NCBI GenBank assembly: GCA_965287045.1 | Contig: OZ336870.1 | Coordinates: 101,432,001 to 101,496,000 of the forward strand | DNA from: Carcharhinus amblyrhynchos | Lineage: Eukaryota | Length of the DNA stretch: 64,000 nucleotides | Direction of reading: 5' to 3' | Shown here: one piece after another, positions 22,601 to 28,600 of the stretch | Position numbering within the stretch: position 1 is the stretch's first letter | Layout of the letters: every line of letters starts with the position of its first letter | Position numbers: made by a program

Positions 22601-25600
22601 CACAAGTTGTCTTTGGTGCTGAAAATTGCCATTGTGCTGTACTTATCCCATTGTTTTGGTGGTTTCCAGGAAATTATTCCAATTATATTGTACTAAGTTT
22701 ACTTAACACTCTGACAAGGTCATATGGACTCAACAATATTTTATTTATCTCTCCACAGATGCTGCCAGAACTGCTGAGTTTTTCTAGCATTTTCTGTTTT
22801 TAATTAATGTGTATGTGGATAGAAGGAAATGAAATTTGCTCTTGTATGCGGTAATAATTGAAATGAACACTTATTTTATATTGTACATTTCCATTAATAT
22901 ATAACATTAATCCTTTTAGACCTTCCTCAGAACTGTGATCGCAACATTCCTCTAGTTGCTCAGGAAATAATGAAAAGAATGATTCGTCAATTTGCAATTG
23001 AATATATATCCAGAAGTAATCATGTTCATGAAAATCAGACTGGATCGACCGATGAATCTGTTTCAGTCCCAAATGATCCTCCTGCCAAGCAAACTCAGAA
23101 CTTTCACCAGGAGCAGGAGGGACCCCTAGACCTCACTGTGAATAAAAATCAACCGAAAAATTTTCAACAAGGTAATCAGATTTCTTTTCTAATAATTGAG
23201 TGTTTCAGATTTCAGTATGTGTGCACATGTAAATATAGTTATTGAGGAAAGACTGTAACAGTACATTACCACAATATTTATTTTATCATTGGAACCTGGA
23301 TTCATTGCCAGCTCAGAAATAATGTAATGAAAATCAGTGACATAACCTAATTCTAAGTAAGTGCAAGCAACAAATTGACAACCATACTCGCTTTAAATAT
23401 ATAATTAATTAAAAGTGGAATAAAATATGATACGGTCAGTATTGGTTCACAGTCAGGTCAGTTCATGGCACGTTTTAAAGTGGGATGACTTTCTCTGGTT
23501 GCTGATTTTAGAGTGCACCGGTGAAAATGTTTTTTTAAATGGATAGGAATATTGTTAGCAAAGCCAGCTTTTGTTGTTCATTCCCAATGGGGACAATTGC
23601 TATCCGTGTACTGTAGGTACACCGTGGTACTATAGCATAACAAAACTAGAAAATGAATTCTACACCCCATAACGCTGCAGCCATTCTCATCTGTTGTAAC
23701 TTCTACCAGCATGACAAGAACATTTGTGCATGTGCATTCAATCCACGCTGCAGGTACCAGCACATGTACAGCTGTTGGGACAGGGTGGAATTTTTCCATG
23801 TCTTACTACATGAAATCTTGTTTTTTAACACTGCCTCTTTACATCACCATTAAGTGAGCGTTTAGCATTGTGATTGACAATTAACATATTCTTAAAGCTC
23901 TACAGTGGTACCCAGGTAGAGAAACAGCTGCAGCTTCAGAGGGGTCACCTCACTTCCATATACATCACTAATTAACTTGCTACAATCCATAATAAATCAG
24001 ATCTTTGAAAATAAACAAAATAAATTAGTTAATTTAAATATTGTTTCCTGCCCAGTGTGTTAAGGGAACCCCTTGTGTTTCCCAATCATTTCAGATGGAT
24101 GATAATGAGACTTTGAATCATTGTTTTGAATCTTGTAAATTTCTTAGAAGTGTTTTATACTTCTATGGGTTTTTGCCATTAAAAAGTTGCAACTAATTCT
24201 CCATAGTCTTAAGTTCATTGGAAGCTGGGCGTCTCATTTATTGAAATTTCTTTTTTTACACACACATGTTATTTTATACATCATTCACAGAATTTTCAGA
24301 AGCATGTTTTACAGAGGGAACAGTTGATAAATGATAGGTAAAATAGGTATCAGAATTTGTATGTGAAGAACTGTGCAGACCCAAAAATTGCTAATTTGAA
24401 TTTTATCTTTAACTTCAAGCCAACTTGTTTGTTTTAATGCAGCAGCCAATACTCTGACACTGTGTGCAGGAAATACTCCTCCTGGTATCATGGCATAATT
24501 AAACATCCTGTCTCACCAACATATAAAATATATCTTTTAGATTTTTATAAAATTAACCTGTTCTTGAATTTCTTTTATGCAAGTTGTTATCCGAACTTCA
24601 TGTACAAACTGAAAAACAGGAGCATATTCTGTAATAAGCAACTTGATTATTCAGAATTCTGTGAATCTTAGAACATGATCACTACAGCACAGAAGGAGGA
24701 CACTCATACTGTCGTGTCCATGTTGGTTCTTCACAAGAGACTTTGCAAAGACTGGCAGCCAACACTGAAGTGGAATCCTAAAGGCTTTCTGTAGACATAT
24801 AAACAGTAAAAGGAGTACGGCCAGTTAGGCATCAGAAAAGGAATTTGCACATGGTAGCAGGGGGACTGGCTAAGACCAAGCCCAAGATGGGGTGCAATAC
24901 CTTATCTTGTCAGCTTTTACCTTGTTTGTCCCTCTTGAGGAGACCATGAATTGGATTCCATTTGAATTTGGTTTTTTGTAACGAGTAAAAATGAATTAAA
25001 AACAAAAAATTAAATCAGTACTTTGCATCTGGCTTTACCAAGGAGGTTGATGGAGACCAATGAAGAAAATTTGTCCCTAGAACGGCTCAAAATTGATATG
25101 GTGGAAGTGTTGAATTGAAAGTTGACATGACATTGGGACAGGATGAGATGTTCCCAAGGATGTACATGTGCTGGTACCTGCAGCGTGGATTGAATGCACA
25201 TGCACAAATGTTCTTGTCATGCTGGTAGAAGTTACAACAGATGAGAATGGCTGCAGCGTTATGGGGTGTAGAATTCATTTTCTAGTTTTGTTATGCTATA
25301 GTACCACGGTGTACCTACAGTACACGGATAGCAATTGTCCCCATTGGGAATGAACAACAAAAGCTGGCTTTGCTAACAATATTCCTATCCATTTAAAAAA
25401 ACATTTTCACCGGTGCACTCTAAAATCAGCAACCAGAGAAAGTCATCCCACTTTAAAACGTGCCATGAACTGACCTGACTGTGAACCAATACTGACCGTA
25501 TCATATTTTATTCCACTTTTAATTAATTATATATTTAAAGCAAGTATGGTTGTCAATTTGTTGCTTGCACTTACTTAGAATTAGGTTATGTCACTGATTT

Positions 25601-28600
25601 TCATTACATTATTTCTGAGCTGGCAATGAATCCAGGTTCCAATGATAAAATAAATATTGTGGTAATGTACTGTTACAGTCTTTCCTCAATAACTATAGGA
25701 AGTGAGAGTGGAACTGCAGGGGTGTTGGCAATCTTTGTCTCCTTTAGATTCAAGAGATTCCAGAGGATTGTCAAGTTGCAAATGTTATGTATGCCCTTGT
25801 TCAAAAAAGAGAGAGCCCCAGCAGTGGAGTGGGCAAATAAATGGCCGATGAAGTTCAATGCGGAGGAGTGTGAAATGATGCATTTTGATGAGAAGAACAT
25901 GGAGATACAATACAAAATAAGGGGTAAAATTCTTAAGAGGATGCAGGAGCATAGATTATTGAAGATGGCAAGACAAATGGGGAGAGCAGTTAATAAAACA
26001 TGTAGTATCCTAGGCTTTATTAATAGGGCAATAGAGTACAAGAGCAGGAGGTTAGACAAGACACCAGTTAGACCTTAGCTGGTGTATTTTGTACAGTCCT
26101 GAGTGCAATACTGTAGGAAAGATGTGAGCGTATAGGAGAATGGTTCTACGGATGTAGCACTTTGGTTATGAGGGTAGGTTGGGGAGGTTCACATTGTTCT
26201 TCTCCTTGCAGAGAAGAACACCAAGAGGAGATTTGATTGAAATGTTCGAAATAAAGGGGCTGGACAGAGTAGAAAGGGAGAAACTGTTCCCCCTTGTAAA
26301 AGGTTCAAGAATGAGCAGGTGCAGAATTGAAATGATTTGTAAAAGAAGCAAATGTGATGAGGGGGAAAAAAAAATTTTCACACAATGAATTGTTTGGGTC
26401 TGGAATGCACTGTCTGGAAACTTATTGGAGGCAAGTTCAATGGAGACATTCAAGATTTCATTAGATGATTTGAATAGAAACAATATGCAGGCGAATGGCA
26501 CTGAGTCATAATGCTCATTTAGAGAACTGGTGCAGACATGGGAGGGCTGAATGGCCTGCACCACAACTATTTTGTGATAATACTCAATGTAGTAAAAGAC
26601 AAATGTGCAATTTTTGTGACTTTTAACTTGTTTTGTTTTGTTCTCATGAGCTTTAGTTCAAACCAATAAGAGTGATTTGCTTTAAAACACACTCAACTGG
26701 CTAATTTCTCTATCAAATTCTAGATATGGAATTAGATGATCAAAATGAACGATGAAGAAAGACTTGAAGGGCCAAATGGCCTAGTTCTGCTTTTTTCTAT
26801 GTTTCGATAAATTGTGTAAGCTTTCTAAATTTAATTTACTGTATCTTGCTTACCTAAAAATGGTGCACTGTCTGATAGCCGATTGTAGTCAATTTTCCTT
26901 AAAATCCCTCGCAGGCGCCCTGATATCAGAAGTTGAATGTGTTTACAGGCCAAAGGCTGGGAGTTTATACTGCAGGCTGCAGTATAAACTGTCTGCACCT
27001 GAATATAAAGTGTCAGTGATCTAGGAATGGAATGAACCATTGTGGCTAATTTTTGTTAAAATACAAACTGTCAGATTTATACTATTGACAATTCAGCATA
27101 TTTTAGGCCTAACACTGAAGATGCAAGCAATGATTTTTGATTACATTCTAGTCAGAAGTATGGAGCATCGATGTCTCAAACTTCAGTGTATTAATACAAT
27201 TATACTGAAGTTTGTGTAGTCCTGATCCCCAAAAGTAACATTTATGGAGATTAGCTTAAGCATGCAAGTCTCTTGAATCAAAATACCTATGTATATATTG
27301 TTATGCATTTGGTTTGTGTGTTTAGACAGTCATGCTTTCTCACTGCCTGAACAATCAATTTTAGCACATTGCTGAACTTTACATCAACCCCTACAGAAAA
27401 AATAACTTGAACTAATATATTTTCATTTTCACCCTACTTAGCGCAACATTTTTTTTGTTTCAGTTGTTAAATCCTGAATGAAGTGCAACAGAGTACCTAC
27501 TGCTTTGTGGAGCTCACACCACTTGTGTGTATGCATTAAGCACCCTGTACAGTACAATTTGTAACACGTGGTCTGAGTCACTCATTAGTATGGTCAAGGT
27601 AATTTCTGAAGCTAAGATCACATGGGAGGATAAAAAAGAGAAATTAAGTTGAAGGATCTTTTTGAATGCTTGGTTGGCGTAGTATTTCATTTGTGTGAGG
27701 TAAAAGGAACACTAGAATCCGTTGCTTTTATGATCAGCCTAGTCCTTTGGCTATGAATCTCACTATTATAGCCTCTTATCCTTGTGTCTTTCTAATTTCA
27801 GGTGCAGCCAGTGAATTATTTTCTCTACCATGACATCTATCCCATCTTTGTTTGGTGTCAGATTGTACTAGAGTTGAGAGATGCATTTGTTCATTATTTG
27901 AAGTGAAAAATGATGAGCCTGCAAATGTTGCCAGTGAGTTGAGTATGCATAGGATAAGTTCGTGCTGATGTATAAGCCATTTTTGGCTCTGGTAGTCTTT
28001 AAAACCTTTGCCCAGAAGTGGCTGGAGATGTGCGTAACTATTCATTTGACTGAATTTATTTTTGAATTTAGTAGCAAAATATATGCAATGAAGAAAGTTG
28101 ACCAGGCTCTCTGTGCTGTGGATGACGTCATGAAAAACAGTTGATGCTTCCTCCTTTGCATCCCTGGCAGTGGATGGTCTAAGATTTATTTAGGCTTTTG
28201 TATATTGATATGGAGGAAAGTAGAATAAATCTGATTGCAAGAAGAGCCAGTTATAATGGGAGTCCTATGATTCTTTGGAAGCAACAGATAAGGTTCCAAT
28301 GATAGCAATGCTTTGGGGCAGCTTTAGAAATTTTGTTGGGGATAAAGAATTATCAGTGACCTGCTGGGGAAAAATAAACATGTGATTCTTCATGGTTGCA
28401 GTTTATTTTGATGCTTTTGAGGTAGGTGATAAGCCAGAATATTGCAAAATGGCAGAGCAGATTGAAGGAACCAGATGGCTTAGTCTTGTTTCTATTTCCC
28501 ATAGAAAGCGAAAAACCAGGATGTGCACTGTGATTAGTCAGGCACTGATTGTCTTCATTCCTAATCAACAAATTTTATGCCTGCCCCTGCAACTTCCACC

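What the first reader, a model, noticed from the sequence alone, without database searches (positions are those of the whole stretch)
23234..25697. Near-perfect 537-bp inverted duplication starting 62 nt after LCORL exon 5
Seen: 23234-23770 and 25161-25697 are reverse complements with no indels and one mismatch at a CpG, separated by 1390 bp. The duplicated DNA is not a recognisable transposon. The right copy splits a CR1 fossil with only a few bases lost, so it is the derived copy. Inference: a very recent templated insertion (polymerase theta-mediated end joining or MMBIR-like repair). In the pre-mRNA it would form a ~0.5-kb perfect duplex next to the exon 5 donor. That is a candidate ADAR substrate, endo-siRNA source or splicing modifier, and a substrate for inversion of the spacer.
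Basis: partly seen in the sequence, partly recalled or inferred. Interest (0 to 1): 0.65.

Follow-up and report, generated by a model that had tools for sequence, protein, structure and literature searches.

The report
Recent inverted duplication in shark LCORL intron
A 537-base piece of a shark LCORL intron has been copied, flipped and pasted 1.4 kb downstream into an old CR1 retrotransposon relic, most likely as a by-product of DNA break repair, and the two copies should fold the gene's primary transcript into a long double-stranded hairpin whose effect is untested.

Summary
23234-23770 and 25161-25697 are reverse complements: 537 nt, no indel, one mismatch at a CpG, 1390 nt apart. The left arm starts 62 nt after the donor of the fifth coding exon of a shark LCORL gene. 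The closest annotated protein is from Carcharodon (98%), and the window is not human.

The right arm interrupts a CR1 reverse-transcriptase relic that runs on in frame on both sides. About 6-7 nt of target are lost. There is no target-site duplication and no tail. So the right arm is the derived copy. The unit has no third copy in 64 kb, no coding, tRNA or Rfam signal.

New here: the source interval is bounded exactly, in register, by an 11-nt direct repeat (10 of 11 identical). It lies at 23223-23233 and 23760-23770, and its period equals the unit length. I estimate the chance of this at about 2e-4. Junction microhomology is at most 0-2 nt.

Best reading: a one-period DNA fragment made at the source was captured, inverted, by end joining at a nearby break. 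This fits classical Pol theta or MMBIR signatures poorly. The RNA hairpin (536 of 537 pairs) and its ADAR or splicing effects are predictions only. This is a new member of a known kind and of modest interest.

The parts
22920..23171 (+). LCORL coding exon (residues 126-209 of the Carcharodon model P0001; fifth coding exon), followed by donor GT at 23172-23173
   Evidence: Exon-only protein search: best hit LCORL of Carcharodon carcharias, 98% identity, 100% coverage. tblastn of P0001 on the window. Sequence read.
23223..23233 (+). R1: first copy of an 11-nt direct repeat, ending exactly one base before the left arm
   Evidence: 9-mer exact match at lag 537 found at 23223; 10 of 11 positions equal to 23760-23770 (read).
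23234..23770 (+). Left arm: the presumed source copy of the 537-nt unit, in intron 5
   Evidence: It keeps the CpG at 23389-23390.
23760..23770 (+). R2: second copy of the 11-nt direct repeat, forming the last 11 nt of the left arm; R1 to R2 distance is 537 nt, the unit length
   Evidence: (lag 537) and the sequence.
23771..25160 (.). Spacer of 1390 nt, unique in the window; its last roughly 155 nt are the 5' piece of the CR1 relic
   Evidence: no second copy; the 12 spacer reading frames among the 17 scanned have no credible Pfam match.
25006..25160 (+). CR1 relic, 5' piece (reverse-transcriptase protein region about residues 422-480 of P0158), ending with the codon for R480 plus one base
   Evidence: tblastn and translations; DNA alignment to in-window CR1 copies.
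25161..25697 (-). Right arm: derived, inverted copy of the unit, inserted into the CR1 relic
   Evidence: The flanks are colinear CR1 sequence. It carries the mutated CpG (25542).
25698..26481 (+). CR1 relic, 3' piece: resumes at about residue 483 of P0158, has an internal gap (about residues 523-715 missing near 25800-25830), then residues 716-946
   Evidence: the right flank matches the CR1 copy at 35412 in 16 of 17 nt from 25699.
32483..32580 (+). Next LCORL coding exon (residues about 210-242); intron 5 therefore spans about 23172-32482 and holds the whole structure
   Evidence: The acceptor position is approximate.

Best explanation
This is a genuine germline structural mutation: a local, inverted, templated insertion. 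A 537-nt stretch of LCORL intron 5 (23234-23770) was copied, and the copy was joined in reverse orientation into a break in a CR1 relic 1390 nt downstream. The source stayed intact. The joins look like ordinary end joining: about 6-7 nt of target lost, no target-site duplication, no tail, and at most 0-2 nt of microhomology. The copied interval is exactly one period of an 11-nt direct repeat: it starts right after R1 and ends with R2. I therefore infer that the inserted piece was a pre-formed one-period fragment. The proposed origin is a newly made minus-sense strand that had just copied R1, re-paired with R2 and looped out exactly the complement of 23234-23770. This is the slippage-loop route proposed for small extrachromosomal 'microDNA'. 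The fragment was then captured at a nearby break. The event is either young (one CpG transition in 537 nt) or has been kept uniform by arm-to-arm conversion. As a consequence, the pre-mRNA should fold into a hairpin of 536 base pairs with a 1390-nt loop, beginning 62 nt after the exon-5 donor. That is a likely ADAR substrate, and no function is shown. Shown: the anatomy, the direction of copying and the junction features. Inferred: how the fragment arose, the end joining, the age, and all RNA effects.
For: - **Arms:** 536 of 537 positions are complementary, with no indel. This is the only pair above 99% identity in the window.
- **Right arm is an insertion:** the CR1 protein reads ...DEMFPR before 25160 and resumes after 25697, colinear with residues 470-520 of P0158. 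The right flank aligns to two other CR1 copies from its first or second base and is 16 of 17 identical to the copy at 35412.
- **Target loss:** between the R480 codon and the conserved block there are 8 nt (copy at 35412) and 9 nt (copy at 52095), but only 2 nt in the relic.
- **The arm's first hexamer is not CR1 sequence:** 1 of 6 and 3 of 6 matches to the two copies (read). The joins are therefore near-blunt.
- **No retrotransposition or transposon marks:** no poly(A) or tail and no duplication of 5 nt or more at the joins. The unit has 2 of 2 copies here and no further hit longer than 59 nt in 64 kb. No Pfam family at E<=0.01 for the longest ORF. Among 17 ORFs of arm and spacer scanned at E<=1, 16 have no match and 1 has a chance-level match at E=0.19, far below cut-off. 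0 Rfam families and 0 tRNAs.
- **Direct repeat in register:** a 9-mer match at lag 537 starts at 23223. Over lags 300-800 the window gives a mean of 0.43 such matches per lag. I derived about 2e-4 for one falling within 15 nt either side of the boundary.
- **Literature:** loop excision at short direct repeats is an accepted route to small circles (passages of PMC9527254). Capture of DNA patches at breaks with microdeletion and no target duplication is described as class 2 templated insertions (passages of PMC5110952).
- **The mismatch is a CpG transition** in a CpG-depleted sequence (observed/expected 0.25). That is what a real germline mutation would look like.
Against: - No read data, no second individual and no sister-species sequence could be consulted, so neither the empty site nor the genome-wide copy number is known.
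- The slippage-loop origin is inferred from one coincidence and was seen after looking at several junction features, so the p-value is post hoc.
- The model needs a break 1.39 kb away at the same time.
- It leaves unexplained a weak similarity between the target's left flank and the sequence beyond the source's inner end (8 matches with one gap, 3-4 nt from the join; 2.7% of 20000 random pairs score as well, two junctions tested). That similarity would fit foldback priming better.
- The 6-7 nt target loss is judged against only 2 related CR1 copies in the window and could predate the insertion.
- microDNA is usually 100-400 bp (passage of PMC9527254), so 537 nt is at the upper edge.
Confidence: 0.6

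Rival explanations
1. Foldback- or template-switch-primed synthesis. After a break in the CR1 relic, the resected + strand 3' tail (or a stalled nascent strand) folded back over a 1.39-kb loop. It paired near 23771-23782 and copied the + strand leftwards for 537 nt. The new strand was then unwound and joined to the other end by end joining. The template could equally be the nascent LCORL pre-mRNA, which has the same sequence, if the polymerase can reverse-transcribe.
For: - Orientation and position fit: the source lies upstream on the same strand and the copy is inverted.
- The target's left flank and the reverse complement of 23771-23785 share 8 matches with one gap, 3-4 nt from the join. Only 2.7% of 20000 random 15-mer pairs score as high.
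- Hybrid foldback synthesis followed by end joining is documented in yeast (abstract and passages of PMC11724301).
- Hairpins with loops of thousands of nucleotides are reported to mediate foldback inversions (passages of PMC7467729).
- Pol theta can start stem-loop synthesis from two terminal base pairs (start of the abstract of PMC11292364, search listing).
Against: - The 3 nt directly before the join do not pair with the source, so the primer terminus would rest on at most 1-2 possible base pairs.
- The arm's first hexamer does not look like CR1 sequence: 1 of 6 and 3 of 6 matches, against 16 of 17 in the adjoining flank.
- The documented foldback insertions are 2 to about 150 bp, mostly under 14 bp (PMC11724301), far below 537.
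- The model does not by itself explain why copying stopped exactly at the direct repeat R1. It needs an added assumption, for example that the displaced start of the new strand paired with R1 and blocked it.
Confidence: 0.2
2. The duplication is old, and the arms have been kept nearly identical by gene conversion between the inverted repeats. The near-identity would then say nothing about age.
For: - The CR1 relic it sits in is old: only about 40% protein identity to P0158, with stops and frameshifts. The insertion could therefore be anywhere from recent to ancient.
- Template switching between inverted-repeat arms is reported to homogenise them (starts of the abstracts of PMC8604942 and PMC13100816, search listing).
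- Arm-to-arm conversion in large palindromes is known (recalled, no call).
Against: - The boundaries of identity are knife-sharp and coincide with the CR1 break and the direct repeat, as in a fresh event.
- No mosaic of older differences is seen.
- This concerns age only and does not replace an origin by templated insertion.
Confidence: 0.12
3. The 537-nt unit is a non-autonomous mobile element with defined ends, and two copies landed independently in this intron.
For: Both copies share exactly the same ends. No vertebrate repeat library or genome was available, so abundance elsewhere is untested. A 3-nt repeat borders the right copy (GGA at 25158-25160 and at 25698-25700).
Against: - There is no third copy or fragment in 64 kb. 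By contrast P0158 gives 25 tblastn segments (E<=1e-3) to CR1 relics across the same window.
- No terminal inverted repeats, no tail, no tRNA or Rfam head, no coding capacity.
- The target shows a net loss rather than a duplication.
- Two insertions 1.4 kb apart with one difference between them would be a remarkable coincidence.
- The left copy's upstream flank repeats the unit's own last 11 nt, which no transposon class I know predicts (recalled).
Confidence: 0.05
4. Assembly artefact: a chimeric or mis-joined read placed an inverted copy of nearby sequence into the contig.
For: The raw reads cannot be inspected. Near-identical inverted copies are a known artefact class of some library types (recalled).
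Against: - Two clean junctions inside unique sequence would be needed, with normal orientation resuming afterwards.
- The insert sits at a single point of a colinear CR1 frame.
- The only difference between the copies is a CpG transition, the signature of real germline decay.
- No N or gap is nearby.
Confidence: 0.05

Closest known systems
Class 2 templated sequence insertions (DNA 'patches' captured at double-strand breaks by end joining; Onozawa and Aplan, PMC5110952, passages read)
   Same: The donor is retained. There is no target-site duplication and no poly(A). There is a microdeletion and little or no microhomology at the joins, and the event is in the germline.
   Different: The described cases come from distant loci and are thought to pass through RNA. 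Here the donor lies 1.39 kb away in the same intron and is bounded by a direct repeat.
microDNA / small eccDNA formed by loop excision between short direct repeats (review PMC9527254, passages read; a 542-bp Bombyx example flanked by a 4-nt direct repeat is mentioned in the abstract start of PMC12847890, search listing only)
   Same: The source interval is exactly one period of a short direct repeat, is a few hundred nt long, and comes from unique transcribed DNA.
   Different: No circle junction or permutation is present in the insert: the copy is colinear with the source. Chromosomal re-insertion of such a small fragment in a germline is not something I found described in searches.
Foldback (hairpin-primed) inverted insertions and inversions at breaks (PMC11724301, PMC7467729; passages read)
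   Same: An inverted copy of sequence upstream on the same strand, with a second junction that looks like end joining. Large loops are allowed.
   Different: The known insertions are 2 to about 150 bp and start at clear inverted microhomology next to the break. Here the insert is 537 nt and no demonstrable priming microhomology is present.
Short template-switch mutations that create perfect hairpins (four-point model, PMC5453318 passages; RNA hairpins and new miRNAs, abstract starts of 10.1101/2021.04.15.439925 and 10.1101/2023.04.19.537475, search listing)
   Same: A reverse-complement copy of nearby sequence creates a perfect stem that is transcribed.
   Different: Those events are short-range and small. 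The authors state that they do not model long-range switches. This one is half a kilobase across 1.4 kb.
Intronic inverted repeat pairs (for example inverted Alus) as ADAR substrates and sources of intron-derived dsRNA (abstract starts of PMC13189227 and PMC7462079, search listing; general knowledge recalled)
   Same: Two inverted copies in one intron are predicted to pair in the pre-mRNA.
   Different: The arms here are not transposons, are longer, and are essentially perfect (536 of 537), whereas Alu pairs are diverged. No editing data exist for this locus.

Membership tests
End-joining patch insertion (class 2 templated insertion) | No target-site duplication of 5 nt or more | tested here: met
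   The flanks share only 3 nt, GGA at 25158-25160 and at 25698-25700. There is a net target loss of 6-7 nt against two CR1 relatives.
End-joining patch insertion (class 2 templated insertion) | No poly(A) tract or polyadenylation signal at the insert's end | tested here: met
   The insert's ends, read, carry no A or T run.
End-joining patch insertion (class 2 templated insertion) | Microdeletion, small microhomology or untemplated bases at the joins | tested here: met
   About 6-7 nt missing; possible microhomology 0-2 nt at 25160/25161 and 0-1 nt at 25697/25698 (my reading).
End-joining patch insertion (class 2 templated insertion) | Template from a distant locus, via RNA | tested here: not met
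   The donor is 1390 nt away in the same intron. RNA against DNA template cannot be told from the sequence.
microDNA-type one-period fragment | Source bounded by short direct repeats in register | tested here: met
   The 11-nt repeat (10 of 11 identical) lies at 23223-23233 and 23760-23770, with lag 537 equal to the unit length. The background is 0.43 matches of 9 nt or more per lag per window.
microDNA-type one-period fragment | Circular intermediate (junction or permuted order in the re-inserted copy) | tested here: not met
   The insert is colinear with 23234-23770 from end to end. A linear excised loop fits; a re-opened circle would have to open exactly at its junction.
Foldback-primed inverted insertion | Inverted copy of sequence upstream on the same strand as the break end | tested here: met
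Foldback-primed inverted insertion | Inverted microhomology at the priming junction | tested here: inconclusive
   Only an interrupted similarity 3-4 nt from the join (p about 0.027). The terminal 3 nt are unpaired. The hexamer test argues against shared sequence. The empty allele is needed.
Pol theta end joining with templated insertion | Short insert copied from sequence next to the break, flanked by microhomology | tested here: not met
   The insert is 537 nt copied from 1.39 kb away, with at most 2 nt of microhomology. The typical sizes are recalled, not taken from a call.
LINE-mediated retrocopy (target-primed reverse transcription) | Target-site duplication, 3' tail, endonuclease-type target | tested here: not met
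   None of the three is present.
DNA transposon or foldback element with long terminal inverted repeats (whole 23234-25697 as one element) | The whole element interrupts one host sequence and is flanked by a target duplication | tested here: not met
   The CR1 relic is split by the right arm alone, and its 5' piece lies inside the 'element'. The outer flanks differ: AAA at 23231-23233 on the left and GGA at 25698-25700 on the right.
ADAR substrate (long intramolecular dsRNA) | Long duplex within one transcript | tested here: met
   Both arms lie in intron 5, on the sense strand of LCORL. The in-register duplex has 536 of 537 pairs and -991.7 kcal/mol. This is an in-silico result only.
ADAR substrate (long intramolecular dsRNA) | A-to-I changes in RNA | not testable with these tools
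   No RNA data were available.

The most novel reading that the evidence does not exclude
The right arm is a heritable re-insertion of a microDNA-type fragment. Under this reading, a one-period piece defined by an 11-nt direct repeat was thrown off by slippage during DNA synthesis at the LCORL intron and captured at a break 1.4 kb away. That would be a natural footprint linking the biogenesis of small extrachromosomal DNA to germline templated insertions. In one step it would also create a perfect half-kilobase hairpin next to a splice donor in a gene known for body-size effects (that association is recalled, not checked here).
Probability: 0.25. Interest if true: 0.6.

Novelty: new member of a known kind. 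Interest (0 to 1): 0.35.

Why it matters
If the reading holds, this locus is a clean natural example of how repair can copy a few hundred bases of nearby unique DNA and re-insert them inverted, with all four breakpoints readable to the base. The in-register direct repeat gives a concrete and testable hint about where such 'patches' come from: slippage loops or microDNA-like fragments rather than microhomology-primed copying.

For RNA biology it is a near-perfect 536-bp intronic duplex of non-transposon origin, 62 nt from a splice donor, in a vertebrate with ADAR genes (recalled). If the insertion is polymorphic, the two alleles would allow a direct comparison of editing, intron-derived dsRNA and exon 5-6 splicing. 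Inverted repeats of this size and spacing can also drive rearrangement when exposed as single strands (abstract of PMC10164571). None of this is shown here. It remains one event in one intron with no sign of selection.

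Tried and rejected
1. **Whole structure as one element with 537-nt terminal inverted repeats.** Rejected because the CR1 relic is split by the right arm only.
2. **LINE-type retrocopy.** Rejected: no duplication and no tail.
3. **The arm's first 6 nt as shared microhomology with no target loss.** This was attractive because it restores the CR1 spacing exactly (8 nt against 8 nt in the copy at 35412). It was rejected because the hexamer matches the two CR1 relatives in only 1 of 6 and 3 of 6 positions, while the adjoining flank matches 16 of 17.
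4. **Re-opened circle formed through R1/R2.** Set aside because the insert is not permuted.
5. **Helitron-, Tc1- or RAG-signal-like ends.** Compared by eye with recalled consensus ends; nothing fitted. This was not a formal test.
6. **Coding or RNA genes in the unit and spacer.** The longest arm ORF has no Pfam family at E<=0.01. Of 17 arm and spacer ORFs scanned at E<=1, 16 have no match and 1 has a match at E=0.19 (10.9 bits against a cut-off of 27). Rfam gave 0 families and ARAGORN 0 genes. Tandem Repeats Finder reported 5 small arrays in 22000-27500, none inside the arms.
7. **Alternative LCORL exon inside the structure.** The short isoforms of four other cartilaginous fishes all continue into the exon at about 32483-32580, and none maps between 23172 and 32400.
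8. **Local RNA structure around the donor.** 23100-23420 folds no better than shuffles (z = +1.41).
9. **Species identification.** Searches with exon 5 and with the last coding exon gave no 100% match; the best is Carcharodon carcharias at 98%.
10. **Older local inverted repeat at 15446-15961.** Examined only by self-comparison.

Not possible: genome-wide copy number, orthologous loci, read support and repeat-library look-up. 

Full report
**Observation.** A repeat scan of 22000-27000 finds one inverted pair and no direct family. Base-by-base comparison shows that 23234-23770 and 25161-25697 are reverse complements over 537 nt. There is no indel and a single mismatch, 23389 C against 25542 A. 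Just beyond both ends the match falls to chance level: 7 of 12 positions on the inner side and scattered matches on the outer side. The mismatch sits in a CpG that the left arm keeps and the right arm has lost. The left arm has 8 CpGs and the right 7, and the window's CpG observed/expected ratio is 0.25. The spacer is 1390 nt. In a self-comparison of the whole window this is the only pair above 99% identity; the next best is 94.6%. The window contains no N.

**Setting.** I searched the open frame of 22922-23170 on its own. It hits ligand-dependent nuclear receptor corepressor-like protein (LCORL). The best hit is Carcharodon carcharias (98% identity, full coverage), followed by other sharks, rays and a chimaera. 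Mammalian and bird proteins are at about 58%. The last coding exon, also searched alone, gives the same order and no 100% match. It carries two HTH_psq stretches. The window is therefore from a shark whose LCORL is not in the protein set, and I do not take it for human. Exons were searched one by one, and I left out the step of joining them into a spliced model.

Mapping the Carcharodon protein P0001 on the window places residues as follows:
- residues 29-54 at 757-834
- residues 50-81 at 11883-11978
- residues 82-127 at 18491-18628
- residues 126-209 at 22920-23171
- residues about 210-242 at about 32483-32580
- residues 243-591 at 42047-43093

The exon before the repeat is thus the fifth coding exon if residues 1-28 lie on one exon upstream. 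Its donor GT is at 23172, and the left arm starts 62 nt after the exon. The whole structure lies in the 9.3-kb intron 5. Short LCORL isoforms of four other cartilaginous fishes all run on into the exon at about 32483, so no known alternative exon lies in the structure.

**Which copy is derived.**
- The window is rich in CR1-type relics: the reverse transcriptase P0158 gives 25 tblastn segments across it.
- One relic surrounds the right arm. Residues 716-946 of P0158 align to 25830-26466.
- Upstream, the translation reads LNQYFASGFT ... KVDMTLGQDEMFPR up to 25159. Directly after the arm it resumes with a stretch that ends in IPEDCQVANV. This is colinear with residues about 422-520 of P0158.
- At the DNA level the right flank aligns to two other CR1 copies of the window from its first or second base. 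It is 16 of 17 identical to the copy at 35412.

The CR1 5' piece lies inside the spacer, which excludes the idea that 23234-25697 is one element with long terminal inverted repeats.

**The joins.** Between the codon for R480 and a conserved block there are 8 nt in the copy at 35412 and 9 nt in the copy at 52095, but only 2 nt in the relic. So 6-7 nt are missing at the insertion point. Counting the arm's first 6 nt as CR1 sequence would restore the spacing exactly, which would mean a 6-nt microhomology and no loss. I reject this because that hexamer matches the two relatives in only 1 of 6 and 3 of 6 positions, next to a flank that matches 16 of 17. By my reading, possible microhomology is 0-2 nt at 25160/25161 and 0-1 nt at 25697/25698. 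There is no duplication of 5 nt or more (only a shared GGA), no A-rich or other tail, and no untemplated filler. These are the marks of end joining. They are not the marks of target-primed reverse transcription or of transposase action.

**Is the unit a mobile element?**
- It has two copies and no further hit longer than 59 nt in 64 kb, and the spacer is unique.
- The longest open frame has no Pfam family at E<=0.01.
- Of 17 open frames of arm and spacer scanned at E<=1, 16 have no match. One has a chance-level match (E=0.19, 10.9 bits against a cut-off of 27).
- Rfam gives 0 families for the window and ARAGORN 0 genes for 22000-27000.
- The 5 small tandem arrays reported in 22000-27500 all lie outside the arms.
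- I saw no terminal inverted repeats.

I had no vertebrate repeat library and no vertebrate genome to search, so abundance elsewhere stays unchecked.

The 11 nt just before the left arm (23223-23233) repeat the last 11 nt of the arm (23760-23770), with 10 of 11 identical and 9 in a row. The distance between them is 537 nt, exactly the unit length. The copied interval therefore starts right after the first repeat and ends with the second. At lag 537 the window has two 9-mer matches, this one and one at 11753. Over lags 300-800 the mean is 0.43 per lag. From that rate I estimate about 2e-4 for one falling within 15 nt of the boundary.

A second, weaker feature concerns the left junction. The target's left flank and the reverse complement of the sequence just beyond the source's inner end share 8 matches with one gap, 3-4 nt from the join. 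Only 2.7% of 20000 random pairs score as well. The other junction shows nothing (92% of random pairs score as well).

**Mechanism.** The general class is a templated insertion made during repair of a break or a replication accident. The in-register direct repeat is the strongest clue and points to a pre-formed fragment of exactly one period.

One route is described for small extrachromosomal circles: polymerase slippage at short direct repeats forms a loop that is excised (passages of PMC9527254). The phase seen here includes the second repeat and excludes the first. That is the phase expected if a newly made minus-sense strand had just copied the first repeat, re-paired with the second, and looped out the complement of 23234-23770. 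This step is my inference. Capture of such a piece at a break by end joining would give near-blunt joins, a small target loss, either orientation, and an intact donor. Those are the features of class 2 templated insertions (passages of PMC5110952), except that the described cases have distant donors.

The main alternative is foldback priming. In that model the resected 3' tail pairs upstream on its own strand and is extended, and the product is joined to the other end. It is documented in yeast (abstract and passages of PMC11724301), and loops of thousands of nucleotides occur (passages of PMC7467729). It would explain the flank similarity. Three points count against it. The primer terminus would be unpaired. 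Known products are 2 to about 150 bp. It also needs an extra assumption to stop at the direct repeat.

A template of nascent pre-mRNA instead of single-stranded DNA cannot be excluded, because both have the same sequence. Their usual signatures (short break-adjacent inserts, or microhomology at each switch) are not seen. The typical Pol theta insert sizes are recalled, not taken from a call.

**Age.** One difference in 537 nt gives about 0.9 million years at 1e-9 substitutions per site per year. The Poisson range is 0.02-5.2 million years, and halving or doubling the rate doubles or halves these figures. The rate for sharks is not from any call. Arm-to-arm conversion could keep an older duplication uniform, and I cannot test this without other species. 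The spacer is in its original orientation, because the two CR1 pieces are colinear.

**Consequences (predicted only).** In the sense transcript the arms pair over 536 of 537 positions, with one C.A mismatch. The in-register duplex evaluates to -991.7 kcal/mol, with 176 and 164 adenosines in the two arms. The donor itself lies outside the duplex, and the region around it folds no better than shuffled sequence. A long perfect intronic duplex is the kind of RNA that ADAR enzymes edit heavily (recalled). Intron-derived dsRNA has known links to innate sensing (abstract start of PMC13189227, search listing). At the DNA level, widely spaced inverted repeats can drive rearrangements when single-stranded (abstract of PMC10164571). 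Nothing here shows function or selection.

**Verdict.** The event is a new member of a known kind. One unusual and informative detail, the direct repeat that measures out the copied piece, deserves a genome-wide test. Supplementary files of the papers were not consulted, and none of my claims depends on them.

Noticed in passing
window 25800-25830: The CR1 relic that received the insertion also lacks about residues 523-715 of the reverse transcriptase (roughly 570-580 nt). The gap lies only about 105-130 nt to the right of the insertion point. It could be an unrelated old deletion or part of one complex repair event.
   Followed up: partly
window 15446-15654 and 15751-15961: A second two-copy local inverted repeat lies in LCORL intron 3: 212 aligned nt at 83.5% identity with a spacer of about 96 nt. 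It has no other copy in the window and no CR1 protein match. It may be an older event of the same kind or a small foldback element.
   Followed up: partly
window 60527-60673 and 61833-61980: An inverted pair of 148 nt at 87.8% identity lies at the 3' ends of two CR1 relics in opposite orientation (CR1 protein matches at 61450-61835 on +, and a CR1-like C-terminal open frame at 60767-61036 on -). These look like two independent insertions rather than a duplication.
   Followed up: partly
window 47534-48382, 48152-48533 and 50009-50392: A comparatively young CR1 copy has a 192-residue open frame, 61% identical to P0158 over 268 residues. Two CR1 3' ends 1.9 kb apart are 94% alike. CR1 activity in this genome therefore seems to have continued until fairly recently.
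   Followed up: no
window 1-64000: P0158 gives 25 tblastn segments (E<=1e-3) to CR1-type relics on both strands, and the CpG observed/expected ratio is 0.25. This is a heavily methylated, CR1-laden shark intron landscape.
   Followed up: partly
window 7567-7826: A dinucleotide (TG/CA) run shows up as long Cys-Val and Thr-His open frames on both strands. It is an ordinary microsatellite.
   Followed up: no
window 22920-23171 and 42047-43093: The LCORL exons are 98% identical but not identical to Carcharodon carcharias, and no protein in the set is identical. The source species appears to be a shark whose LCORL is not in the searched protein collection.
   Followed up: yes
P0158 (protein hit): A full-length CR1-type reverse transcriptase is labelled in its source as coming from a Carnobacterium assembly. 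Similar ones are labelled Klebsiella and Proteus. These are most likely vertebrate DNA contaminating bacterial assemblies.
   Followed up: no
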